A DNA stretch of 64,000 nucleotides from Minisyncoccota bacterium (lineage in GTDB: Bacteria; Patescibacteriota; Minisyncoccia; Phycocordibacterales; UBA9973), in the NCBI GenBank assembly GCA_036517375.1, contig DATDWM010000017.1, positions 3,208 through 67,207 on the forward strand, given 5' to 3'. The notes beneath the pieces are model-generated. The model was given only the letters and a program-made list of their open reading frames with translations. It was not told where the DNA came from and did no database searches. The position numbers were made by a program, and so were the translations under genes. Each line of letters starts with the position of its first letter. Position 1 is the stretch's first letter. This document shows positions 23,479 to 35,087 of this stretch, in pieces.

Positions 23479-26400
23479 TTATGCTTTTGTTAAAGATAAC
23501 CGCATAGATTCTTCGACCGTTTCTTTTAGAGGATGGAAAGCATACTTCTTCAATTCAGGAAAAAAAGAATCTATAACGTCTGAGGTTCTGACTAATAAAT
23601 AATTCAAATAATAACTACTTTCTGATGACTTATAAATAGAGAGACGGATAACTTTTTTTAGAAATTCCTTTTTATTTTCAAATTCCATTTGTGCTAGCTT
23701 ATTAACAAGCTCTGGAAGATTGTATGGATATTCTTGGTTGTTGCAAAAATCCAAAATGTCCCCCTTAATCTCCTTAAGGTAAGCTTTGTCCTTATTTTTT
23801 ACAGACAAATCAAGTAGTGAACATAGAATATTGTAGGTAAGAAATTCAACGTTATTTTCTTTACACCACAGTTTTACCTTGCTAATAATTTTAAGGTCAG
23901 AGTTTGAAACAATCTCTAGTATTAAACCATCAATTTTATATTTTTTATCTTCCTTAATAAAAGAATCTAGTAATCCAGTTATCTTTTTCATAGACCTGTT
24001 CCGTGCAAAAGATTTAGCCTGTTTAATGACTGCTAGCGGTATTAACTCTGAGTTAGGGGTAGTTGGTATCACTGAATATCCGTCAAGTTCTAATTGGGCG
24101 ATATACTTCTTTATATCCCCATACTCTCTTTTTAAATCATTCTTTTGTTTTATAAACGTTACTAATTCATTTAATAGGGTTAATCTTGCCCCAACATATA
24201 CATATCTACGCAAGTAAATACAATATCTACTTAAAAATAATCTGGCGTTAGGAATATCATTATTTTTTAGAGAGTGGTCAATCAAGGCGTAGTAAATAGC
24301 TTTGATATTTGGTTGTTCTCGGTCAGTCTCTTCATCAAATCTTACTAAACCTAGCAATGGCATTAGTTCTGGAGCAATAGTTTGATATTTATACCTATCA
24401 AGACTAGCCAGAATTACTTTTTTTAACCCCTCATTCAAATTAACTTCTCCTTTGTTTGTCAGTTCTATTAGATAATCAAGACCTAATTCATAATTTGAAT
24501 ATGCAACTGATTCTATAAAACCTAATTTATAATACCAGCTACCCTCAACAACACTACTGATTTTATCGATATATTTAAGAATGGTTTCAAAATCATCTTT
24601 TTTATTTTGAGTTCTAAGACAGTCAATTAAATTCAAAATTCTCAAATCCTCTTTTGCCCATAAGCCACGAGAATATTTAAGAGAATGCTTATAGATATTC
24701 TCTGCTGATTCTCTATAACCCTTACTATTTACTGTTCTTGCTAATTCCTTCAGACCATCACTTTTTGCAAAATTATCTTGCTTTTCTTTGGTTTTAAATT
24801 CAAGTATCTTTTTTTGGTATAACACTACCTTTGATACTAAGGCGGGGGTGATTGGCAACAGTTCATCGAAGGTGGTCTCTAATAAACTTTGATTTTTCTC
24901 TAAGATTGTATTTTTGAAAACCGATTCGACGACATCAACAAAAGATTCTAATTTTTTAGGAAAATACTTAGCTACAGTATTCAAACAAATCCCTACGAAT
25001 GAAGTTGCATTTTGATAGTAGACAAAAGCTGTTTTCTCAAAAGGAGATTCTCTTAGTTGTTTATACTCACTAACTTGTGAAATTTCCTTTTTAAATACAC
25101 TAAGACTTTCCATAATAAAATGGTTTAATCTTTTCCAGTCCATTTTTTTATTTTTTACAAAAAGAATATTACGGTAAAGCAATATGTAGGTTGAAACTAT
25201 GTTAGCGAAAGCATCATTCTCATAGTCCTTAAAATGTTCTTTATGATATTTTTTCTGGGCATCAATGAGAAATTCCTTCGGATTAAAATTTTTAGTAACA
25301 ATACTTAACAAAGCGGTTCTTCGGAGGAATAACCCCTTGCCGTTTATTCCCCAGTTAGAATACATATCTCTGTGATAAGGTGGCTCAAAGTCAACTCCAG
25401 AAATTAATTTAGATATGGAAGATTTTGATTCGCTTGTGTTTAACAAATATGAGACTTCGGCTATATCTAGTTTCTGATTTATATATCGGTCGTTGATTAA
25501 ATATTTGAATAACTGATACTGTTTAATAAGAGTTTTGAGTTTCTTTTTGGCAGTAGTATCTTTTTTCTCTATATAAAGATACGCATAGGTTATGAGCTGT
25601 ATTGCCTTGGATTGCCTATTTATAAAATGTAACACTGCCTTTTTTTCTTTTGGGTATTGAACTCTATTCAACTTTATTAACATACTAGCTCGGAATCCCA
25701 CTGTATAAGGTTTAGGCTCTTTAAAACGAATATTTTCAATATATCTTACAGCTCCATCGTATCTACCTAAGTTAATACAAGCTTCTAAATACTCTACGAT
25801 ATTATCCCAGTACATATCCGTATTACCATTTTCCATCATTTTTCTATCCCAAAGAATATCTTTATTAAAAGAAATACGAGCTAATCCATCTTCTAAAAAT
25901 CGAAGGGCTAAATTTTTAGAAGGACTGTCTTCTCTGGTATATAAAAAATTACCCAATCTAATTCGCTTCATTACCCATTCTCTTAAATTGTACAGAGATT
26001 GGTTTTGTAATACATCAAGTTCAGCCTCAACTTCTTTAAGAAGGTTCGGTGTACCGATACTGCTTTTCAGAAAAGTATCGTCATCGGACATCCGAGCAGG
26101 ACTTAAATTACTAATCTTAACTGAATATTTAATAAAATTCTCTAAATCATTTTTTGCATCAAAGTATTTTGTAAAATAATGTAAAGATTCAATTTTTGAA
26201 CCATAATCTAGTTTAGAATCAAAAATTGTTTGAATGAAATTATTTTGAATTAACTTCTTTGTAATTTGCTTAGTAAACGGGTCAGAACTGCCAATTACCC
26301 GCAAATGATTAGTTAAGTATTTTTTCGGATAGGCTAATTTGAGATTACCTTTAGTTGAATAGAATCTTATTATTTTTCGGTTATATTCTTTCTGAACACT

Positions 26401-28215
26401 TGTTAGTTTATTACGAATGAATCTTCTAAAACTATCGTGGTATGGTTCGATATATCCTCCACGCAAGTTCACGAAGGGACTTATTTTTTCGTTAAGGTCA
26501 TTAAAATTCTCTAACTTAATTTTCGCTACCTTATAGAGTGTGTCTCTTTGGATTTCAGCAAAATGAAAACTTAGACAACCAAGACAGTGTTTCTGTCTTG
26601 TGTTCAGGCTGTCCCAGATGGGTTTATACCAATCGAAGACTTCTTTATAATCTTCTTTGCTGTCTATAATGCTGTCATAGTCTTTTCTTGAAATCTTTTT
26701 TAACTTTTGTGTTAAATAAAAAATAGAAATAGCCAACCCTTTCGTTTTTTTAGATATTTTTCTTAATTGGTCAATAGTTAGATTAATTTCCGCATTTTTA
26801 AAATATTCTTTTATTTCATTCTCGCTAAATGACAAACTAATAGAAATCTTTCTAGAAGTTTTGTCTGGAAGGTTTTTTATCTGTTGCGGAAGATATTCTT
26901 TTGTCCAAGTACTTAACAAAAAGACTACGCCAGCATATTGAATTGAAGGTATGGCATTTAGGATAGACTTATCTTTGTAGTTGTCAGTTTCTACTTGGTC
27001 TAAAGCGTCTACAATTATTACAATTTTTTTATCCTTACGTTTTAATGCTGATTCGCTTACTTGATTTAATGTTTTCTCAAACATTTTATTTATAAATTCT
27101 TCATTATCCTTAAGGCTGACAGTTTCTTTTGTAAGTCCCAAGTCAAAAAAGCGTTGAATCAGGTCAACCTTAAACCACATACTACTTAAACGTTCTTTCT
27201 CATAATTTAAATTCGAGTCAATTTTCTCAAAAGGTCTAATACGACAAAGGTAGGGTAAAAAATCAGCGTTGGTTTGTGTAAGCTTTGAGAGTAAGACTGT
27301 TTTCCCCGAACCAGAGGGGGCAAAAAGGAAAACGAAACCACCTTTCTTTTTTTGTTTATTTACAGCTTTAAGTATCTCAACTTCAACCGCTTTTCTTTGA
27401 ATGTAATTTTTAGGAGTATTTATCTCGTGAACTAAACTCGTTTTAATAATTTCAATCAATCCAAGTACATCCGCCTTTCTAATGATAGTTTCTTTTTGAG
27501 TAAATTTTTTAAAGGTTCTACTTATAAAAGCATCAACTCTATCATTATCAGAAATGCCAAGAAGCCCTAATTCTTTTTTGAGTTTGGATTCTATGCCGTC
27601 ATTGTCTGTGGAAATTTGAAATTCAAAAGATTTTATAAAAGCTTCTAGTTCGCCACGCTTTAGACGAGTTTTAGTGAAATTAGATTTAATGTTTAAAAGT
27701 TCCGTTTTATATTTATCACTAAATTTACTCCAAGTTATCTTTTTCTGATTCAACTTTTTTATATCACTAAGAAACTTCTTCAAGTCTGACCCAAGTGGTT
27801 TGTTGCTAGCAAGAATTAACTTAACTTTATTCTTTTGTCCTTTATGAAATCTCCAAGCTTTAAGGAATTTAAAAATTACAGTTCCTTCGTACTTAGAATT
27901 TTTCTTAGCACTTTTTTTCTTGGCAGTTTCCTTGGATTCCCATAGACCACTATAAGTCCAACTACTGCTTACTACATCAGTGTACTTAAGTTGAATGACT
28001 TCAATGGACTTATCTTCAAAAAATCGGGTTATGTCCTCTATACGTCTTTTTGCTCCTCCTTTCCTGTCTGGTTTGATTTCGACATAAGAAAGCTTACTAT
28101 CGGTCTTTATTAATTTTGTAAACTCTAGAGCAGAAAAAACCTTTTCGAAGTACTGAGAAGTATCTTCGTTTCGATTTAGTATATGACTTTTGGATGTCTT
28201 CTTTTTTCCTTTCAT
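23479..28215 (-). CDS. Giant (1578 aa) P-loop NTPase, STAND/AVAST-like candidate defence protein
   Basis: Walker A GGFVFLFAPSGSGKTVLLSK (~aa 297), Walker B KIVIIVDALDQVE (~aa 400), >1100-aa helical C-terminal region, N-terminal region with PD..QLK (PD-(D/E)xK-like) pattern. Confidence 0.6.
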   Translation of the reverse strand: MKGKKKTSKSHILNRNEDTSQYFEKVFSALEFTKLIKTDSKLSYVEIKPDRKGGAKRRIEDITRFFEDKSIEVIQLKYTDVVSSSWTYSGLWESKETAKKKSAKKNSKYEGTVIFKFLKAWRFHKGQKNKVKLILASNKPLGSDLKKFLSDIKKLNQKKITWSKFSDKYKTELLNIKSNFTKTRLKRGELEAFIKSFEFQISTDNDGIESKLKKELGLLGISDNDRVDAFISRTFKKFTQKETIIRKADVLGLIEIIKTSLVHEINTPKNYIQRKAVEVEILKAVNKQKKKGGFVFLFAPSGSGKTVLLSKLTQTNADFLPYLCRIRPFEKIDSNLNYEKERLSSMWFKVDLIQRFFDLGLTKETVSLKDNEEFINKMFEKTLNQVSESALKRKDKKIVIIVDALDQVETDNYKDKSILNAIPSIQYAGVVFLLSTWTKEYLPQQIKNLPDKTSRKISISLSFSENEIKEYFKNAEINLTIDQLRKISKKTKGLAISIFYLTQKLKKISRKDYDSIIDSKEDYKEVFDWYKPIWDSLNTRQKHCLGCLSFHFAEIQRDTLYKVAKIKLENFNDLNEKISPFVNLRGGYIEPYHDSFRRFIRNKLTSVQKEYNRKIIRFYSTKGNLKLAYPKKYLTNHLRVIGSSDPFTKQITKKLIQNNFIQTIFDSKLDYGSKIESLHYFTKYFDAKNDLENFIKYSVKISNLSPARMSDDDTFLKSSIGTPNLLKEVEAELDVLQNQSLYNLREWVMKRIRLGNFLYTREDSPSKNLALRFLEDGLARISFNKDILWDRKMMENGNTDMYWDNIVEYLEACINLGRYDGAVRYIENIRFKEPKPYTVGFRASMLIKLNRVQYPKEKKAVLHFINRQSKAIQLITYAYLYIEKKDTTAKKKLKTLIKQYQLFKYLINDRYINQKLDIAEVSYLLNTSESKSSISKLISGVDFEPPYHRDMYSNWGINGKGLFLRRTALLSIVTKNFNPKEFLIDAQKKYHKEHFKDYENDAFANIVSTYILLYRNILFVKNKKMDWKRLNHFIMESLSVFKKEISQVSEYKQLRESPFEKTAFVYYQNATSFVGICLNTVAKYFPKKLESFVDVVESVFKNTILEKNQSLLETTFDELLPITPALVSKVVLYQKKILEFKTKEKQDNFAKSDGLKELARTVNSKGYRESAENIYKHSLKYSRGLWAKEDLRILNLIDCLRTQNKKDDFETILKYIDKISSVVEGSWYYKLGFIESVAYSNYELGLDYLIELTNKGEVNLNEGLKKVILASLDRYKYQTIAPELMPLLGLVRFDEETDREQPNIKAIYYALIDHSLKNNDIPNARLFLSRYCIYLRRYVYVGARLTLLNELVTFIKQKNDLKREYGDIKKYIAQLELDGYSVIPTTPNSELIPLAVIKQAKSFARNRSMKKITGLLDSFIKEDKKYKIDGLILEIVSNSDLKIISKVKLWCKENNVEFLTYNILCSLLDLSVKNKDKAYLKEIKGDILDFCNNQEYPYNLPELVNKLAQMEFENKKEFLKKVIRLSIYKSSESSYYLNYLLVRTSDVIDSFFPELKKYAFHPLKETVEESMRLSLTKA

Positions 28216-28396: not shown

Positions 28397-28831
28397 ATGC
28401 CAGCAGGAAGACCAACAGAATACAGTGAAAACATACTCTCTAAATCAAGAGAGTATGTTGATTCTTGTGTGGATGAGCTAGAAGACCGACCAAAAACAGT
28501 TGGGACAAAATCCACTTCCTACGAGAGGGTTATCAAGGTTAATTTACCTACAATAGAAGGTCTGGCGAGCCATTTAGGGCTTGCTAGAAGCACTTTATAC
28601 GAGTGGAAGGACAAATACACTGAATTTTCGGACATCTTAGAGATACTTTTAGCACATCAGGCAACTGCTCTTATTAATAATGGTTTGTCAGGAGACTATA
28701 ATGCGACCATAGCTAAGCTTCTTCTAATGAAGCACGGCTATAAGGAAGATGCCCGAATATACGAGAGAATCACTGGGAACGAAATTATCTTCAAGGATAT
28801 GTCTGTGGTAGGAGTTAGTGAGTCCGATTAA
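28397..28831 (+). CDS. HTH DNA-binding protein resembling phage terminase small subunit
   Basis: N-terminal GRPTEY and HTH LPTIEGLASHLGLARSTLYEW pattern typical of TerS-like proteins. Confidence 0.45.
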   Translation: MPAGRPTEYSENILSKSREYVDSCVDELEDRPKTVGTKSTSYERVIKVNLPTIEGLASHLGLARSTLYEWKDKYTEFSDILEILLAHQATALINNGLSGDYNATIAKLLLMKHGYKEDARIYERITGNEIIFKDMSVVGVSESD

Positions 28832-28840
28832 AGAAAGTAT

Positions 28841-29305
28841 TTATTCTGTGAAATATTGGCTATGTTTTTCCTTAAAATCACTATCATTAATAGAACCAAT
28901 ATCTGTGCAACCACCATCAACGTCTGAAAAAGCCCCTGCTCCACACTGGAAAATTACTTTGTTTTCATATCCGTCTCTCATCATTGAATAAAAAAATTCA
29001 TCTGTATTTCTACTCAAATTTTTGTTTACAATTCTGTAAACTTCTGTATAAACATAGCATTTATTTTTAACTGAATTGAAATGGTTAGTTGTATATACAG
29101 AATAATTATTATCCAACTTACTTTTTTCCTCCTTGTCTACTTCTATGGCTTTTTGTGAACAATTGTAAGCATATTCTCCATACTTAGTGTCAGAAATTAT
29201 ACCTACCTTACTTTCATTGTTACTTTTTATTACATAGGTAAATATCAGTATCAATAAAACGATAACCCCAATTTTAAACCAGTTTTCTTTTAAGAATTTT
29301 GTCAT
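28841..29305 (-). CDS. Secreted/membrane-anchored hypothetical protein
   Basis: N-terminal TM/signal; several Cys. Confidence 0.5.
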   Translation of the reverse strand: MTKFLKENWFKIGVIVLLILIFTYVIKSNNESKVGIISDTKYGEYAYNCSQKAIEVDKEEKSKLDNNYSVYTTNHFNSVKNKCYVYTEVYRIVNKNLSRNTDEFFYSMMRDGYENKVIFQCGAGAFSDVDGGCTDIGSINDSDFKEKHSQYFTE

Positions 29306-29308
29306 ATG

Positions 29309-30172
29309 TTAGTTGCAATAAACTGTGTTACCGATAAAATTACAAATTGTTGTTGGGTGAGGTGGTGTTGAATAATAAGCATCGGGTTCACACGCTTGAT
29401 AATATTTGTTCATAAGCGGAGTAGATTTTATTGCCAAATCAGCTCCCTTAGAAGCTAGTTCGCTTGACTCTTGTGAACCAGCATCAGCTTCTTCCATACG
29501 AGCCAAGTTGTCGTCTAGTTGTTTTTGTATACTGTCATAAGCTTTCTTGGCACTTACGCATTCTGGGCTATTGTGTATTTTATCTTCGGCTTCTTGTTTA
29601 GCATTGGCTTGGTCTTTAAGCTGTTGATTTAAAATATCATATGCAGAGGGTTGAGAAGATGTTGGACTAGGTTGTCCGCAGGAAGCTTCACCTATGGCTG
29701 GGCAGTAAAAAGGATTCTCAACAGAACAATTGGAAATATTGTAAGATTTTCCATTGCATACTCTTATATTATCCAGTTCACTTTGAGTGTAACAACCAGA
29801 AGCGTTGTCGGGGCTACAGAAAAACTTTTTACCAAGAGATGGACAGGTGTCTTTTATTTGTTGACCATTGCACATCACTATATTTTCTTGGGTGGGTATA
29901 CTCTTTTTAACTGGGGCTGTTACTTTAGGAGCAGGTGTAGTTGTTTTGGGTTGTTGATTTTTTAAATCATCAATTTGTTTTTGTAGTTCTTGAATTTGCA
30001 CTGTCTGGTCTGGTGCTGGTTTAGTATCCGTTACTTGCACTTGTGGTGCAGGAACTTCTTTTTTATGGAATATGCTCCAGCTAAAAGGATTCCACCAAGA
30101 GGCAAAAGTAATTTGTGGAATCAAAATGATTGCGACCAAGATAACAGAAACTATATTTAACTTATTTTTCAT
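29309..30172 (-). CDS. Secreted Cys-rich protein with Pro/Gln-rich linker (start set at MKNKLNIV signal peptide)
   Basis: Signal-peptide-like segment begins at internal Met; upstream 50 codons of ORF-track call overlie a structured GC-rich non-coding-looking element. Confidence 0.55.
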   Translation of the reverse strand: MKNKLNIVSVILVAIILIPQITFASWWNPFSWSIFHKKEVPAPQVQVTDTKPAPDQTVQIQELQKQIDDLKNQQPKTTTPAPKVTAPVKKSIPTQENIVMCNGQQIKDTCPSLGKKFFCSPDNASGCYTQSELDNIRVCNGKSYNISNCSVENPFYCPAIGEASCGQPSPTSSQPSAYDILNQQLKDQANAKQEAEDKIHNSPECVSAKKAYDSIQKQLDDNLARMEEADAGSQESSELASKGADLAIKSTPLMNKYYQACEPDAYYSTPPHPTTICNFIGNTVYCN

Positions 30173-30363
30173 AAAATAAAAAGCTAGCTGATAAGAGCTA
30201 GCGTGGAAAACACAGAACCCCACGCCAGCTAGGTCTTGCGACCCCATATCAGTTTCCCGATATAGCCCTTGGAAGAGTTGCTGAACGCAGGGTTCAGTAT
30301 CTTCCAAGGGTCTTTTGACCATATCCTAAAGGTGTCTTTAGGGGTTAGGTCGCATATTAAGTT
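30173..30363 (-). promoter_or_regulatory. Highly structured GC-rich leader/intergenic RNA element ending in terminator-like hairpin + U-run
   Basis: Nested inverted repeats (CCCTTGGAAG...CTTCCAAGGG 10 bp; CTGAAC/GTTCAG; CCTAAAG/CTTTAGG; CGTGG/CCACG; GCTAGC x2) and on minus strand GCTAGCucuuaucaGCTAGC followed by UUUUUAUUUU right before ATG. Confidence 0.4.
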
Positions 30364-30723
30364 TTACTTATTCATCGTATCATTATATAGCTCTTTTGTT
30401 AATCTAACTCTAGCTAAGATGTGGAGCTTTAATGCAGTAGAAAAGTAATAAAGACGTGGATTTTTTATTACACGCTTAGCTTCAAGTGGTGTTATCTTGA
30501 TAATTACACCATTAGCACGATACCAAAATCTTCTATCTTTTCTAATAACCTCCGCATTGTATTGAAAAAGATTACGACCGTGAATCCTCGCAAGGTTGCC
30601 TTCAATGAGTCTAATGCTCAATTTAACTATTTCCATAAAATCTCGGCTTAAACTAAAAAAATCTTTCCCACACGGAAAAAGATTTACGACTATTATCTCT
30701 CCCTTGTGGGTTGGATTTAGCAC
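30364..30723 (-). CDS. Hypothetical protein
   Basis: 119-aa ORF, no recognisable motif. Confidence 0.4.
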   Translation of the reverse strand: MLNPTHKGEIIVVNLFPCGKDFFSLSRDFMEIVKLSIRLIEGNLARIHGRNLFQYNAEVIRKDRRFWYRANGVIIKITPLEAKRVIKNPRLYYFSTALKLHILARVRLTKELYNDTMNK

Positions 30724-31202
30724 CTTACTTTCGCAGGTCGCTGGGCGGATTAAAATGAGCCAATTCTCTACTCGCCACTCTCGATAGACTTATTTAGTTG
30801 TGAGATAAGTTTATATAAGGCAAAAAATAAAAGCAAGTATACACCCAAATTTCAAGGGATTTTCGGACATCATAAGAGAGTTTTTACACGTTTTTAGAAT
30901 CCTAAAATAACCATATTTTATAGCTTATATTAGCCGTTTAGCCCTATGCTATAATAGTGGTAGAAGTTCCTTAAATAGCTCTGACTACAACTCCTGCCAC
31001 CAAGCAGTCAAAAAACTGGAATAAACTGGTTCAGTCAGATACCGTTTTGGATAATACTGTGAAATTGGTGATGATATGTGAGGAGGTCAACCTCTTAAAA
31101 ATGATTTAAGAAAATGCGTCAGCCAATTGTGCAAGATTAGACCGAGATAACAAAAAATACTTATGGTGTTTTGTTATTTCAGTCTAGTTTTGGAACAAAA
31201 AC

Positions 31203-31631: not shown

Positions 31632-32196
31632 AAAAACAAAATGGAATTGAGTGCGGAAGCAGTAAAAGATTTGAGGGAAACACTAGAACTGGAAATAGGA
31701 GTGAGGAATACAAACAGGATGAGTGATAACGACTTAGAACATATAGGTTGTTTTTTCCTTGAAACTTTTAAGCAGGGTTTGAAGAGAAGAGTGTCTAAAA
31801 TTTAATATCTAAAACAGCTTTAGGGGTTCGCTGTATAAACCACTCCTATAAACGAAACCAGTAAATCGGACTCAAATGCGAAAGCACGGAAAAACAGTTT
31901 ATCCCTCTGTCCGTGCCATCTGATTTGTGCCTGATTGCTGATTACAGAAAATGGATTTTCAAAGGTAAGTCGCATTTGTTTGTAAAAGATATTGATAAAT
32001 ATAGCTGTAATAATTACCTTTTAGAGAGAATCAGAGGTAAAAGGGAGGGTGTGTCTAAAATGAGAAAAATGTTATAATGAGGAAGCCAGACCGAGTGAAA
32101 ATCTATAAGCCACATTTAGTAATGCTTGTAGGTAAGAATGAGGTAGCAACCACTTGGTCTGGCGATTAAGTAAAGTTGTTACCTCATTTTTATTTT

Positions 32197-33876
32197 ATGA
32201 ATCCAATAGATTTTACAAAGTTAAAGGTAGGAAATTACAATCGTAAGTCGTCAGAGAGTGAAGATAGGCAGGTTCTTTCAATTCAATCACAGATTGATGA
32301 AGCTAAAAGAATAGCGGATTATTATAAACTCTCTCCATATGTAGAGGTATACAAAGAATCAAAATCAGCTAAAACAGAAGGTGTGAGACCAGAGTTTTCG
32401 AGGATGATGAAAAGAATAAGAAATAAAGAGATTGATGCGATAGCGTGTTGGAAAGCTGATAGACTAGCAAGAAATATGGCAGAGGGCGGTGAACTAATTG
32501 ACCTTTTGAGTTCTGGAACTTTAAAGGCAATAATCACTCACGATAAAGTATTCTATCCTTGGGATAATGTTATGGTTTTAGCAATAGAGTTTAGCCAAGG
32601 AAAACAATTCGTAAAAGAACTCTCTATAAATGTTAAGAGGGGTCAAACTAAAAAGGCAACTATGGGTTATCCGCACGGACTAGCCACTCTTGGCTTCACA
32701 AACGACAAAACAGAAGAGAAAGGAAATCGTAAATGGCTAGTGGACGAAGTTCGTCTTCCTGTAGTTAAGCAAATGTTAGAAATGTTTTTATCTGGTAATT
32801 ACTCTGGCACACAAATCTATGATTGGGCTATTAATGTTGCCAAACTAACTACCCCTAATCACAAAAAATGTGGTGGAAATTTTATTGCCTACTCTAGGGT
32901 TTATACAATTCTTAAAGACTCTATCTATGCTGGATTTTTCTACCAGCAAGGACAAAGGTATGAATTGTCTAAAGAACTCCCTCGTCTTATTTCAGAAGAT
33001 GACCATAAGAAGATTTTAAGAATGTTGTCTAGTAGAAAACTTCCAAAGACTCAAACTCACGAAAATCCTTACTCTGGTTTTATAGAATCTCCTTCTGGTG
33101 AATTTGTAGGAGCAGATATGAAGTTTCAAATAATTTGCCAGTGTAAACACAAGTTTGCATATCAAAATAAAACAAACTGTCCTAAATGCGAAATAGCCAT
33201 AAACGATATTAAAAACCCTAAGTATCTTAGTTATGCTTATTACTACAACGTGCCAAAAAGAAAGAAGAGAGAATCCGTAAAATACATCGAGGAGGGCAAA
33301 ATTACCACTTTTTTTCGCTTATATGCAGAGAAAAATCTAACTATGTCAAAATCCCTAGCCCAATGGTGCAAAAGACACATTAAGGAGATAAAAGACAAAG
33401 AGATAGAGACAGGTTTAATTGAATCCTCTGGTAATACTCAACGATTAGAGCAATTAGAGGGACGATTAACTAGATACCGTCAAATGCTTGCAGATGGTCA
33501 AATTGAAACTTCTGAATATGATTCCGATGTAAAATCAATAAAGGATGAAATTTCAGAAATTAAAAATCCTAAAATTAAAAATCGTGATTGGCATCAAGTT
33601 GCAGAAGATATTGTTGATTTAACTACTGAAATAATTGAAACGCTGGAAAATGGTTTGGTAAAAGACCAAAGAGCGATGTTTACAAAGCTTGGTTCGAACC
33701 TAATATGGAATGAGGAAATACTAAATATTATCAACGCAGAACCAATGCAGAAGCTGATTGATGGCTTAAATGAAGCTAAACAAAAGAATCCCAAGTTCGA
33801 ACCTGAAAATATTGTTGATACAACAGAACAGAATGAGGTTTTTGAGGACATTTGTCCTATCTTGCTCCGGGGGTAG
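32197..33876 (+). CDS. Large serine recombinase (resolvase/invertase-type catalytic domain + recombinase/zinc-ribbon/coiled-coil C-terminal region)
   Basis: N-terminal YNRKSSESEDRQVLSIQSQ (catalytic Ser), ...ARL..., Cys pairs (CQCKHKF...CPKC), ~560 aa; ATG at 32197 preferred over upstream TTG. Confidence 0.85.
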   Translation: MNPIDFTKLKVGNYNRKSSESEDRQVLSIQSQIDEAKRIADYYKLSPYVEVYKESKSAKTEGVRPEFSRMMKRIRNKEIDAIACWKADRLARNMAEGGELIDLLSSGTLKAIITHDKVFYPWDNVMVLAIEFSQGKQFVKELSINVKRGQTKKATMGYPHGLATLGFTNDKTEEKGNRKWLVDEVRLPVVKQMLEMFLSGNYSGTQIYDWAINVAKLTTPNHKKCGGNFIAYSRVYTILKDSIYAGFFYQQGQRYELSKELPRLISEDDHKKILRMLSSRKLPKTQTHENPYSGFIESPSGEFVGADMKFQIICQCKHKFAYQNKTNCPKCEIAINDIKNPKYLSYAYYYNVPKRKKRESVKYIEEGKITTFFRLYAEKNLTMSKSLAQWCKRHIKEIKDKEIETGLIESSGNTQRLEQLEGRLTRYRQMLADGQIETSEYDSDVKSIKDEISEIKNPKIKNRDWHQVAEDIVDLTTEIIETLENGLVKDQRAMFTKLGSNLIWNEEILNIINAEPMQKLIDGLNEAKQKNPKFEPENIVDTTEQNEVFEDICPILLRG

Positions 33877-33936
33877 GGATCGAACCTACGACCAATCGCT
33901 TAACAGGCGACCGCTCTACCGCTGAGCTACCCCGGA
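33865..33936 (-). tRNA. tRNA-Asn (anticodon GTT)
   Basis: Cloverleaf folded manually: acceptor TCCGGGG/CCCCGGA, D-arm GCTC-AGCGGTA-GAGC, anticodon stem GTCGC/GCGAT loop CTGTTAA, T-arm GTAGG-TTCGATC-CCTAC; no encoded CCA. Confidence 0.85.
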
Positions 33937-34617: not shown

Positions 34618-34972
34618 GGTAGGTGCTGGATAACTACTCTGTATTTATACAGGGAGGAAAGTCCGAACACAGTCCCGATTTATCGGGAAAATAAGTAGTG
34701 GGTAACGCCCACATGTAGTGATACATAGGTGCGAGCAGAGACGCCGATGCCGAAAGGCTAGGACCCCTTTGGGGTAGCCTGATAGGAATATCAGGGTGAA
34801 ACGGCTAAATCCTTACTTCTGTGCAAGATCGCGCCCTTTGAATGCCTCAGGACTAGTTCCGAGCGTAGTCGAGGGGAGAATCGCTTGATCCGCCTGGTAA
34901 CAGGCACGACAGATAAATTGTTATCATTCCAACGCAAGTTGAAAAACAGAATTCGGCTTATAGGCACCTACA
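34618..34972 (+). ncRNA. rnpB: RNase P RNA (bacterial type)
   Basis: GGGAGGAAAGTCCGAACAC (P4 5' strand) and ACAGAATTCGGCTTATAG (P4 3' strand); P1 pairing GGTAGGTGC/GCACCTAC defines ends. Confidence 0.8.
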
Positions 34973-35087
34973 AGAAAATGAGAGTCCCCTACAGAAATGT
35001 GGGGGATTTTCTTTTAAATAATTACCTGAAATCTTTTCAGCATTTTAGCATTTACGTACGACCGTTTCTTATTGCTAAAATAAAATA

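What the first reader, a model, noticed from the sequence alone, without database searches (positions are those of the whole stretch)
30173..30363. Roughly 190-nt highly structured GC-rich element between co-directional genes, ending in a terminator right at the start codon of a secreted-protein gene
The six-frame track extends the 29309 ORF through this region, but the protein's signal peptide starts at an internal Met (30172) and the upstream 50 codons are featureless. The DNA has at least five hairpins, including a 10-bp stem enclosing a 6-bp stem (CCCTTGGAAG ... CTGAAC-gcagg-GTTCAG ... CTTCCAAGGG). On the minus strand it ends with GCUAGC-ucuuauca-GCUAGC followed by UUUUUAUUUU, immediately before the AUG. 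This is the architecture of a riboswitch or attenuator leader (aptamer plus terminator expression platform), but I do not recognise a known riboswitch class.
Basis: seen in the sequence. Interest (0 to 1): 0.55.

Follow-up and report, generated by a model that had tools for sequence, protein, structure and literature searches.

The report
LOOT RNA leader in mobile island
The structured element is a copy of LOOT, a catalogued orphan bacterial RNA of unknown function. Related copies tie it to mobile DNA islands of ultra-small (Patescibacteria) bacteria, where it sits directly in front of membrane or secreted-protein genes and carries an undescribed built-in pseudoknot.

Summary
Window 30231-30351 (- strand) is a full-length match to Rfam RF03000 (LOOT RNA): 81 bits against a threshold of 46.4. 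The fold z-score is -7.6. The 50-codon N-terminal "extension" of the downstream ORF is absent from all 7 full-length homologues. So this is a known family of unknown function, which Rfam types as an sRNA.

I collected 76 further LOOT copies, at least 54 from genomes named as Patescibacteria/CPR. They show features outside the 121-nt Rfam model:
- An own promoter and a conserved 5' leader, ACAAYUNAAU.
- A conserved 3' tail that pairs with the P2a loop region: 8 bp, 97% paired, 6 of 8 pairs with compensatory changes. A U-run follows it.
- A co-directional ORF in 69 of 69 loci, median 55 nt downstream. 70% have a hydrophobic N-terminus, against 13% of background ORFs.
- A large serine recombinase within the 8-kb block in 29 of 76 loci. 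Its gene often overlaps a tRNA 3' end, as in the window.

In the window the tail can pair with the P2a loop, or with a downstream segment (hairpin H5) that masks the terminator in front of the AUG. I favour a cis-acting attenuator reading at about 0.45. The signal is unknown, and a trans-acting sRNA is not excluded.

The parts
30397..30402 (-). Promoter-like -35 hexamer TTAACA
   Evidence: Consensus scan: TTAACA-17-TACGAT, 9/12 matches, TG before the -10 hexamer. This is a pattern match only.
30374..30379 (-). Promoter-like -10 hexamer TACGAT
   Evidence: It lies 8 nt upstream of the conserved leader motif. In 24 of 27 other LOOT loci with the strict leader motif, a -10-like hexamer lies 5-8 nt upstream of it.
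30356..30365 (-). Conserved 5' leader motif AAAACUUAAU (family consensus ACAAYUNAAU); probable start of the transcript
   Evidence: The strict motif is found 0-15 nt before P1 in 27 of 50 LOOT loci, with degenerate versions in most others. It is not part of the Rfam model.
30231..30351 (-). LOOT RNA core (Rfam RF03000, model positions 1-121): P1/P1a, P2/P2a, P3 (GAAA loop), P4 (GCAA loop)
   Evidence: cmscan 81.0 bits against gathering score 46.4, E = 1e-13, full length.
30266..30310 (-). P2 (11 bp) enclosing P2a (CUGAAC/GUUCAG, 30297-30281)
   Evidence: Sequence, Rfam alignment and per-sequence folds of 48 LOOTs.
30285..30295 (-). 5' strand of the long-range pseudoknot helix (GAACCCUGCGU: end of the P2a 5' arm, the loop, and the start of the 3' arm)
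   Evidence: Alignment A1, columns 93-100 with 168-175: 97.1% paired, 6 of 8 pairs changed on both sides, against 37-40% paired when the partner is slid. Duplex energy -16.7 to -17.4 kcal/mol in the window.
30215..30225 (-). 3' tail: 3' strand of the pseudoknot helix (GCGUGGGGUUC), followed by a degenerate U-rich run UGUGUUUU
   Evidence: Across the region 20-36 kb, this tail is the best - strand partner of the P2a hairpin.
30196..30230 (-). Hairpin H5: the tail (AGCUGGCGUGGGG) pairs with the downstream segment UUCCACGCUAGCU. It excludes both the pseudoknot and terminator T
   Evidence: -20.2 kcal/mol. An equivalent tail-to-downstream hairpin occurs in about 30 of 44 LOOT loci.
30173..30202 (-). 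Intrinsic terminator T: GCUAGCU-cuuauc-AGCUAGC plus UUUUUAUUUU, ending at the start codon
   Evidence: Terminator scan. T forms in the fold when the tail is withheld and is blocked when H5 forms.
29309..30172 (-). Downstream gene: 287-aa secreted Cys-rich protein with a signal peptide and an invariant SWWNPF(S/T)W motif
   Evidence: Homologues start at this Met. No Pfam family. AF2 pLDDT 70, no PDB fold match.
28841..29305 (-). Second gene of the putative LOOT operon: 154-aa protein with an N-terminal membrane helix
   Evidence: ORF list. The same gene order occurs in relatives L030 and L031.
32176..33876 (+). Large serine recombinase, upstream of LOOT and divergent from it; marks the edge of the island
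   Evidence: Pfam Resolvase + Recombinase. Homologues lie within the 8-kb block in 29 of 76 LOOT loci against 0 of 44 non-LOOT loci; 20 of them are upstream and divergent.
33864..33936 (-). tRNA-Asn; its 3' end overlaps the recombinase stop by 13 nt (likely integration site)
   Evidence: ARAGORN. The same overlap (12-69 nt) occurs in 11 other LOOT loci.

Best explanation
Identity (near certain). The element is a copy of the LOOT RNA (Rfam RF03000). It lies in an island about 13 kb long that a large serine recombinase apparently inserted at tRNA-Asn, in an AT-rich Patescibacteria-type genome.

Mechanism (inferred). LOOT is transcribed from its own promoter, starting at the conserved leader ACAAYUNAAU. 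It forms the 5' leader of a short operon for envelope proteins, here a secreted Cys-rich protein and a small membrane protein. It acts in cis as an attenuator.

The core folds into four hairpin domains. The invariant GAAA loop of P3 probably docks on the CCUAA/AUGG internal loop of P1, which resembles the 11-nt tetraloop receptor.

The regulated step is whether the 3' tail pairs with the P2a loop region and displaces the short P2a stem, forming a pseudoknot with P2.
- In most LOOTs this long-range helix sits directly before a U-run, so it would itself act as the terminator or would occlude the nearby start codon.
- In the window the U-run is degenerate and a relay is used instead. If the tail is held in the pseudoknot, the segment CCACGCUAGCU is free and terminator T forms just before the AUG, which turns expression off. 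If the tail is free, it pairs with that segment to form H5, T cannot form, and transcription reads through.

What shifts the balance is unknown. It could be a small ligand, a protein, temperature or folding kinetics.
For: Shown:
- Full-length LOOT match, 81 bits. 18 of 18 collected relatives that were tested also score as LOOT, at 73-105 bits.
- The N-terminal extension is absent from 7 of 7 homologues.
- The tail / P2a-loop helix is 97.1% paired, with 6 of 8 pairs showing double-sided changes; slid controls give 37-40%.
- Cognate duplex energy is -21.1 against -11.9 kcal/mol for non-cognate pairs, with 0 of 5000 permutations as low. The search pattern did not include the tail, so this result is not built in by the search.
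- The pseudoknot strand overlaps the P2a stem by 2-7 nt in 46 of the 48 aligned sequences, and by 0 and 1 nt in the other two.
- A U-run follows the tail in 72 of 75 copies.
- A co-directional ORF follows in 69 of 69 evaluable loci, within 100 nt in 64. The gap from U-run to ATG has a median of about 36 nt, which leaves little room for a separate promoter.
- The upstream neighbour is divergent in 25 of 43 loci, so LOOT needs its own promoter. A -10-like box and the leader motif are present.
- In the window, withholding the tail gives terminator T, and freeing it gives H5, which masks T. The three states fall within about 6 kcal/mol of each other.
- In L038, L067 and L116 the 3' arm of H5 is complementary to the Shine-Dalgarno region instead.
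- The closest relative, L031, keeps LOOT, tail, H5 and a start-proximal hairpin even though the leader is only 58.5% identical; the CDS is 85.6% identical.
Against: - No transcript data are available, so promoter, 3' ends and read-through are all inferred.
- Rfam types LOOT as an sRNA. A pseudoknot helix plus U-run is equally what a stand-alone sRNA with an integrated terminator would look like.
- The downstream proteins share no family: 48 of 71 are singletons. That gives no hint of a ligand and is unusual for a riboswitch.
- LOOT appears to be about single-copy per genome in this sample: 76 hits come from about 75 assemblies, and no second copy was found in 136 kb.
- The family-wide test was only a trend. 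Sequestering the tail lowered start-site accessibility in 13 loci and raised it in 5 (Wilcoxon p = 0.064).
- H5 is absent from about one third of loci, and its cognate-versus-non-cognate energy gap is small (-9.3 against -7.6).
- In most LOOTs the 3' arm of H5 is transcribed after the U-run, so H5 cannot prevent termination there.
- Gene calls are naive ORFs, and hydrophobicity is only a proxy for membrane or secreted location.
Confidence: 0.45

Rival explanations
1. LOOT is a stand-alone, trans-acting small RNA, as Rfam types it. It has its own promoter, and its terminator is built into the fold as the pseudoknot helix plus U-run; in the window, terminator T adds to this. The downstream envelope gene is simply the next gene of the island, expressed by leak-through or from its own signals.
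For: - Rfam type 'Gene; sRNA'.
- A promoter-like site and a terminator flank the element.
- A U-run follows the tail in 72 of 75 copies.
- The downstream genes are unrelated to each other.
- LOOT is roughly one copy per genome in this sample.
Against: - 69 of 69 loci have a co-directional ORF, with a median of 55 nt after P4 and about 36 nt after the U-run. That is too little room for a promoter in about half the loci.
- The N-terminal hydrophobic enrichment is strong: 70% against 13%, p = 9e-22.
- The additional alternative pairings (H5, T, anti-SD) have no role in a simple sRNA.
- No trans target stands out in the island.
Confidence: 0.3
2. LOOT is an island-encoded control RNA that acts on transcription of the element itself. 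One option is an immunity RNA like the CI RNA of satellite phage P4 or the c4 RNA of P1/P7, where a loop pairs with complementary sites in nascent transcripts and causes termination. The other is a put-like RNA that modifies RNA polymerase. The variable loop-tail sequence would set the specificity between elements.
For: - LOOT sits in serine-recombinase islands, usually divergent from the recombinase.
- Cro/CI-type HTH proteins, excisionase-like proteins and replication proteins are nearby.
- The loop-tail pair differs strongly between elements while staying complementary.
- The LOOT leader was exchanged, or diverged fast, relative to the adjacent CDS.
Against: - No second target site was found in the window island: the best partner is LOOT's own tail at -20.5, and the next is -17.7, at background level.
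- No LOOT was found in IMG/VR viral contigs with two patterns or in GenBank phages.
- The downstream operon is only two genes long here.
- The resemblance to P4, P1 and HK022 rests on my own knowledge and was not tested.
Confidence: 0.12
3. The region is coding: it is the N-terminal 50 codons of a 337-aa protein, as the ORF caller and the public gene call (P0001) have it.
For: An open frame runs from 30322 to 29309. P0001 was called as 337 aa.
Against: - All 7 homologues start at the internal Met; none has the extension.
- The region is a full-length LOOT match.
- In the closest relative the leader is 58.5% identical against 85.6% for the CDS, with helices kept through compensatory changes.
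Confidence: 0.01

Closest known systems
LOOT RNA motif (Rfam RF03000; from Weinberg et al. 2017, PMC5737381; listed as a metagenome-based family in the Rfam 14 paper, PMC7779021)
   Same: Full-length match at 81 bits. All six helices are present (P1, P1a, P2, P2a, P3, P4), as are the conserved CCUAA, AUGG and A-rich linker and the GAAA and GNAA loops.
   Different: - This copy has AUAUGG instead of GCAUGG, a P4 shorter by 1 nt, and one C-A mismatch in P1a.
- The features I describe lie outside the 121-position model. They are the 5' leader, the 3' tail and pseudoknot, hairpin H5, the link to envelope genes and the recombinase-island context.
- The main text of the 2017 paper does not name LOOT, and its supplement is not held here. 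Earlier notice of some of these features therefore cannot be excluded.
Transcription-terminating riboswitches whose aptamer includes a pseudoknot coupled to the expression platform (for example ZTP, preQ1-I, fluoride); from my own knowledge
   Same: A conserved structured domain in a 5' leader. A long-range helix whose formation competes with an alternative hairpin and decides whether a terminator or a start-site mask forms.
   Different: - No ligand is known.
- The regulated genes share only an envelope location.
- In most LOOTs the pseudoknot helix itself abuts the U-run.
- No Rfam riboswitch family matches this stretch.
c-di-GMP-I (GEMM-I) riboswitch; from my own knowledge
   Same: The fold is stabilised by a GNRA tetraloop and a receptor. 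It occurs upstream of very heterogeneous genes, many for membrane or secreted proteins of unknown function, and some copies are on phages.
   Different: There is no sequence or structure match (no GEMM hit). The architecture differs: a series of hairpins plus a pseudoknot. Ligand binding is untested.
P4 CI RNA and P1/P7 c4 immunity RNAs, and HK022 put RNA; from my own knowledge
   Same: Structured RNAs carried by mobile elements close to the integration and immunity region, which act on transcription termination through RNA pairing or directly on RNA polymerase.
   Different: No trans target was found, and there is no homology. LOOT is followed by a short envelope-gene operon, not by the element's early operon.
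11-nt GAAA tetraloop receptor (CCUAAG...UAUGG); from my own knowledge
   Same: The P1 internal loop reads CCUAAC...UAUGG in the window and CCUAAA...CAUGG in the family. The P3 loop is GAAA in every copy.
   Different: The G-U position of the canonical receptor is C/U in the window and A/C in the family consensus. Docking is inferred, not tested. In my collected set these bases were fixed by the search pattern.

Membership tests
LOOT RNA (Rfam RF03000) | Covariance-model score at or above the curated gathering score (46.4 bits), over the full model | tested here: met
   81.0 bits, model positions 1-121 of 121, E = 1e-13.
LOOT RNA (Rfam RF03000) | Six helices kept by compensatory change relative to other members | tested here: met
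   - P1, P1a, P3 and P4 are 91-98% paired across 48 sequences, with 2 of 4, 5 of 6, 8 of 8 and 5 of 6 pairs changed on both sides.
- P2 and P2a fold in all 48 sequences.
- The window has one C-A mismatch in P1a and one A-C in P2a.
LOOT RNA (Rfam RF03000) | Conserved unpaired nucleotides (CCUAA, CAUGG, A-rich linker, GAAA and GNAA loops) | tested here: met
   The window has CCUAA, AUAUGG, AAAAG, GAAA and GCAA. It deviates at two consensus positions.
Riboswitch (cis-acting, ligand-sensing leader) | Conserved aptamer-like domain consistently in the 5' leader of co-directional genes | tested here: met
   69 of 69 evaluable LOOT loci, with a median of 55 nt to the ATG.
Riboswitch (cis-acting, ligand-sensing leader) | Expression platform with mutually exclusive structures that control a terminator or the ribosome-binding site | tested here: inconclusive
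   The relay is clear in the window (pseudoknot / H5 / T) and in L038, L067 and L116 (anti-SD). Family-wide, the accessibility shift is only a trend (p = 0.064).
Riboswitch (cis-acting, ligand-sensing leader) | Downstream genes share a metabolic or transport theme that points to a ligand | tested here: not met
   No shared Pfam family among 45 proteins. 48 of 71 are singletons. The only common trait is a hydrophobic N-terminus.
Riboswitch (cis-acting, ligand-sensing leader) | Direct, selective ligand binding that changes the structure | not testable with these tools
   Needs in-line probing, SHAPE or ITC.
Intrinsic (Rho-independent) terminator | G+C-rich hairpin immediately followed by a U-run | tested here: met
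   30202-30183: 7 pairs, 4 of them G-C, then UUUUUAUUUU. Hairpin energy -9.1 kcal/mol. Actual termination was not tested.
Trans-acting sRNA | Own promoter and terminator, and target sites elsewhere | tested here: inconclusive
   Promoter-like and terminator-like sites are present. No target beyond LOOT's own tail was found in 20-36 kb of the window. The rest of the genome is not available.
tRNA-targeting integrative island with a large serine recombinase | Resolvase + Recombinase domain protein at the island edge abutting a tRNA gene | tested here: met
   Pfam Resolvase 2.6e-15 and Recombinase 7.6e-8. The recombinase stop at 33876 overlaps tRNA-Asn 33864-33936. The same geometry occurs in 11 LOOT loci. 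The other boundary was not found.
SAM-I riboswitch (RF00162), for the neighbouring element at 30690-30790 | Score at or above the gathering score (44.4 bits) | tested here: not met
   29.9 bits. The core conserved nucleotides align, but the outer 4 bp of P1 do not pair.

The most novel reading that the evidence does not exclude
LOOT is a sensor RNA carried by tRNA-integrating serine-recombinase islands throughout the Patescibacteria. An unknown signal (a small ligand, a protein or temperature) controls docking of a variable 3' tail into the P2a loop. This long-range pseudoknot is itself the terminator, or it triggers one by a relay. It thereby gates expression of whatever envelope 'cargo' gene the island carries. 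That would make LOOT a new class of riboswitch-like regulator: portable, not tied to one gene family, and the first regulatory RNA assigned to these ultra-small bacteria.
Probability: 0.3. Interest if true: 0.75.

Novelty: new member of a known kind. Interest (0 to 1): 0.55.

Why it matters
LOOT has been an orphan since 2017. It was known only from metagenomes, had no host and no function, and was filed as an sRNA. This window and 76 relatives change that in five ways.
- They give it a host range: many Patescibacteria/CPR lineages.
- They give it a genomic home: islands with a large serine recombinase, many of them inserted at tRNA genes.
- They give it a fuller transcript model: promoter, 5' leader and 3' tail.
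- They add a strongly covarying long-range helix that the Rfam model lacks.
- They show a near-universal link to a downstream envelope-protein gene.

Together these turn 'function unknown' into specific experiments: termination assays with tail and loop mutants, probing with candidate ligands, and transcript mapping in cultured Saccharibacteria. Patescibacteria have tiny genomes and depend on their cell surface to attach to hosts. An RNA that controls surface proteins carried on mobile islands would therefore bear on how these organisms vary their envelope.

Tried and rejected
- blastn of the element against 50,697 GenBank phages: no match.
- Two LOOT patterns against IMG/VR viral contigs: 29 and 3 hits, all chance matches with no LOOT structure. 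I therefore do not call the islands prophages.
- More distant homologues of the secreted protein (L032-L037, about 36% identity): no LOOT upstream. LOOT is not a dedicated leader of that family.
- Pfam on the downstream, second downstream and upstream proteins of the window: no family.
- AlphaFold2 model of the secreted protein (pLDDT 70) against the PDB: best E = 0.18, only generic helical bundles.
- Search for the far end of the island: no direct repeat involving the tRNA, and no second copy of the tRNA-Asn 3' end with up to 3 mismatches.
- Scan for trans targets of the P2a loop in 20-36 kb: nothing above background except LOOT's own tail.
- Family-wide test that sequestering the tail lowers start-site accessibility: 13 loci down, 5 up, p = 0.064, not significant.
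- P2 covariation could not be counted on the MAFFT alignment because helices of variable length were misaligned. Per-sequence folds were used instead.
- Literature: only Rfam papers and one CaCoFold paper name LOOT. The 2017 paper's main text does not mention it, and its supplement is not held. No paper links Patescibacteria, prophages and serine recombinases.
Full report
**1.

- An 11-bp helix, CCCUUGGAAGA / UCUUCCAAGGG, encloses CUGAAC-ccugc-GUUCAG.
- Several further hairpins follow.
- At the 3' end, GCUAGC-ucuuauca-GCUAGC is followed by UUUUUAUUUU and then the ATG at 30172. The terminator scan reports this site.

A 211-nt stretch folds at -81.7 kcal/mol, against -49.5 +/- 4.3 for dinucleotide shuffles (z = -7.55).

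The ORF caller extends the downstream ORF to 30322 (337 aa), and a public gene call did the same (P0001). The seven full-length homologues (276-298 aa, 33-85% identity) all start at the Met that corresponds to 30172. They share a signal peptide and an invariant SWWNPF(S/T)W motif. The 50-codon extension is therefore not coding.

**2. What it is**

A scan of the window against Rfam gives a full-length match to RF03000, LOOT RNA, at 30351-30231 (-). The score is 81.0 bits against a gathering score of 46.4, E = 1e-13.

LOOT comes from the 2017 survey of 224 candidate structured RNAs (PMC5737381). The Rfam 14 paper shows it as a 'metagenomic-based' family (PMC7779021). The CaCoFold paper describes it as having about 43 base pairs in six helices (PMC7657543). 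Rfam types it 'Gene; sRNA'. I found no paper that assigns it a function or a host. The main text of the 2017 paper does not name it, and the supplement is not held here.

The Rfam model ends at P4 (window 30231). The last 58 nt of the finding, with two more hairpins, lie outside it.

**3. Relatives**

The closest homologue of the downstream protein (85% aa identity, locus L031) also has LOOT upstream: 68 bits, cut at the 5' end by the contig end. Its P2 and P4 sequences are entirely different. The leader is 58.5% identical while the CDS is 85.6% identical. Homologues at about 36% identity have no LOOT upstream, so LOOT is not a dedicated leader of this protein family.

One pattern built from the Rfam consensus was scanned over one genome per GTDB species.
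- 76 pass a P3/P4 pairing filter.
- 18 of 18 that were tested are confirmed as LOOT by Rfam, at 73-105 bits.
- By record title, 54 are Patescibacteria/CPR lineages. These include Levy-, Gottesman-, Roizman-, Shapirobacteria, Microgenomates, Saccharibacteria, Parcubacteria, Nomura-, Kaiser-, Adler-, Taylor-, Harrison-, Sung-, Vogel-, Terry-, Staskawicz-, Komeili- and Moraniibacteria.
- 12 are labelled only 'bacterium' and 10 carry other labels, which I did not verify.

Homologues of the window's protein are also named Nomurabacteria or Patescibacteria. The same and a related pattern found no LOOT in IMG/VR viral contigs, and blastn found none in GenBank phages.

One caveat applies. The bases CCUAA, GCAUGG, AAAA, GAAA and GNAA were fixed by the search pattern, so their invariance in my set is built in. 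Everything reported below lies outside the pattern.

**4. Features beyond the Rfam model** (alignment A1: window plus 47 loci with flanks)

(a) *5' side.* A motif ACAAYUNAAU lies 0-15 nt before P1. The strict form is present in 27 of 50 loci, and degenerate forms occur in most others. A -10-like hexamer lies 5-8 nt upstream of it in 24 of those 27. The window has AAAACUUAAU (30365-30356), 8 nt after TACGAT of a TTAACA-17-TACGAT site. The upstream neighbour is divergent in 25 of 43 loci, so LOOT needs its own promoter.

(b) *3' side.* A conserved tail, GGYGGYGRGCUUUUUGYGU, follows P4. Eight tail positions pair with the 5' arm and loop of P2a.
- 97.1% of cells are paired, and 6 of 8 pairs change on both sides. 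When the partner is slid, only 37-40% are paired. This is as good as P3 and P4.
- Cognate duplexes average -21.1 kcal/mol and non-cognate ones -11.9, with 0 of 5000 permutations as low (n = 75).
- The helix overlaps the short P2a stem by 2-7 nt in 46 of the 48 aligned sequences. It crosses P2, so it is a pseudoknot that must displace P2a.
- A U-run follows the tail in 72 of 75 copies.

In the window the helix is GAACCCUGCGU (30295-30285) with GCGUGGGGUUC (30225-30215), at -16.7 kcal/mol.

(c) *Hairpin H5.* In about 30 of 44 loci the tail can alternatively pair with a complement further downstream. This forms a hairpin (H5) with GCUUUUUGY at its tip. The cognate advantage is small but beats all permutations (-9.3 against -7.6).

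**5. Genomic context of the family**

*Downstream gene.* A co-directional ORF follows in 69 of 69 evaluable loci, within 100 nt in 64. The median distance is 55 nt from P4 and about 36 nt from the U-run. An independent greedy gene call agrees for 40 of 45 loci; the other 5 are short ORFs that overlap LOOT itself.

48 of 69 downstream proteins (70%) have a hydrophobic segment in their first 70 residues, against 64 of 476 (13%) for other ORFs in the same loci (p = 9e-22). They share no Pfam family. Among them are zinc-ribbon membrane proteins, Ig-like surface proteins, trypsin-, subtilase- and S26-type peptidases, and PG_binding, bPH_2 and SHOCT proteins. 48 of 71 are singletons. The window's SWWNPF-type protein recurs after LOOT in L055, L115, L137 and L144.

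*Recombinase islands.* A large serine recombinase related to the window's (32176-33876) lies in the same 8-kb block in 29 of 76 LOOT loci and in 0 of 44 non-LOOT loci. It is upstream and divergent in 20 of these, at 131-4159 nt, as in the window.

In 11 of the 23 loci where the recombinase 3' end is visible, the ORF overlaps the 3' end of a convergent tRNA gene by 12-69 nt. The tRNAs are Asn (4), Leu (2), Ala, Met, Trp, Lys and Glu. The window has the same geometry with tRNA-Asn (stop at 33876, tRNA at 33864-33936).

Other neighbours include Cro/CI-type HTH proteins, excisionase-like and replication proteins, DNA methylases, AAA_15/DUF2813, KAP NTPase, Ltp-type lipoprotein and GP3-like HTH proteins.

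The window island also holds a 1578-aa STAND-like NTPase and a GP3_package protein. Its far end could not be located. LOOT is thus a frequent component of tRNA-integrating serine-recombinase islands.

**6. How the window copy most likely works** (inferred)

Three pairings exclude one another.
- The tail (30225-30215) can pair with the P2a loop, forming the pseudoknot.
- The tail region (30230-30218) can instead pair with UUCCACGCUAGCU (30208-30196), forming H5 at -20.2 kcal/mol.
- GCUAGCU (30202-30196) can pair with AGCUAGC (30189-30183), forming terminator T at -9.1 kcal/mol, followed by U5AU4 and the AUG.

Folding the 3' region with the tail withheld gives T. Folding it with the tail free gives H5 and no T. 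Three estimated totals are close:
- core + H5: -78.0
- pseudoknot + T: about -74.8, with no pseudoknot penalty applied
- unconstrained optimum: -80.6; it pairs the 5' half of P2/P2a with the tail and keeps T

This is the logic of an attenuator. Docking of the tail into the LOOT core frees the terminator, and an undocked tail masks it.

In most other LOOTs the U-run follows the pseudoknot helix directly, so that helix would itself terminate transcription or would cover the nearby start codon. In L038, L067 and L116 the 3' arm of H5 is complementary to the Shine-Dalgarno region. Family-wide, the predicted accessibility shift is only a trend (13 loci down, 5 up, p = 0.064).

The CCUAA/AUGG internal loop of P1 resembles the 11-nt GAAA-tetraloop receptor, and the P3 loop is GAAA. 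I infer from this a compact fold in which the pseudoknot closes a junction of P2, P3 and P4. What controls docking is unknown.

**7. Rivals**

*A stand-alone sRNA with an integrated terminator* (Rfam's view) fits the promoter, the U-run, the unrelated downstream genes and the roughly single-copy occurrence. It does not explain the invariable, very close, co-directional envelope gene or the extra alternative pairings. I give it 0.30.

*An island control RNA* in the manner of P4 CI, P1 c4 or HK022 put fits the recombinase context and the highly variable but complementary loop-tail pair. No second target site was found. I give it 0.12.

*Coding sequence* is excluded.

**8. Verdict**

The finding is real. 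Its identity is settled as a new, somewhat divergent member of a known orphan family. The comparative results are, as far as the held literature shows, not described. They are the host range, the island context, the leader, the covarying pseudoknot tail and the link to envelope genes. They make LOOT's function directly testable.

Noticed in passing
window 30655-30790 (- strand): A SAM-I riboswitch-like element at 30690-30790 scores 29.9 bits, below the gathering score of 44.4. The core conserved bases align, but the outer P1 pairs are missing. It is followed by the hairpin AAAUCUUUUUCC-GUGU-GGGAAAGAUUU and a U-run, upstream of an unannotated 90-aa ORF (30364-30636). So two leader-plus-terminator cassettes sit in tandem on the same strand of the island.
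   Followed up: partly
window 32176-33936; loci L038, L039, L043, L055, L066, L080, L084, L094, L099, L105, L153: The 3' end of the large serine recombinase ORF overlaps the 3' end of a convergent tRNA gene by 12-69 nt (13 nt in the window, with tRNA-Asn). This looks like the signature of islands that insert into tRNA genes and bring a replacement 3' end. The far boundary of the window island was not found.
   Followed up: partly
window 29309-30172 (-); proteins P0002-P0041; loci L055, L115, L137, L144: A signal peptide followed by an invariant SWWNPF(S/T)W motif heads many otherwise unrelated Patescibacteria proteins; the partial hits cover only the N-terminus. It may be a lineage-specific sorting or anchoring signal.
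   Followed up: no
window 30173-30339 compared with L031 1-171: Between the two closest relatives the LOOT leader is 58.5% identical, while the adjacent CDS is 85.6% identical at the nucleotide level. The leader module was either exchanged by recombination or evolves much faster than the gene.
   Followed up: partly
window 23479-28215 (-) and 28397-28831 (+): The same island carries a 1578-aa STAND/NACHT-like P-loop NTPase (weak Pfam hits) and a GP3_package / HTH small-terminase-like protein. The close relative L030 has a Schlafen AlbA_2 protein there instead. This suggests a variable cargo region related to defence.
   Followed up: no
window 34618-34976 (+): The bacterial RNase P RNA (class A) scores 100.2 bits, barely above its gathering score of 100, with several regions missing or poorly aligned. 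This is a reduced or divergent RNase P RNA, as might be expected in a Patescibacteria genome.
   Followed up: no
loci L048, L059, L065, L082, L083, L101, L112 (Pelagibacteraceae): A group of SAR11 genomes matched the LOOT search pattern by chance, inside a conserved coding region (no P3/P4 pairing). This shows that the pattern alone is not specific.
   Followed up: yes
loci L060, L061, L076, L090, L102, L152, L109, L125: True LOOT copies occur in MAGs labelled Gammaproteobacteria or Pseudomonadales. Two of the isolate names contain 'PATE', and one contig is 840 kb. The labels are probably wrong, but I did not check.
   Followed up: no
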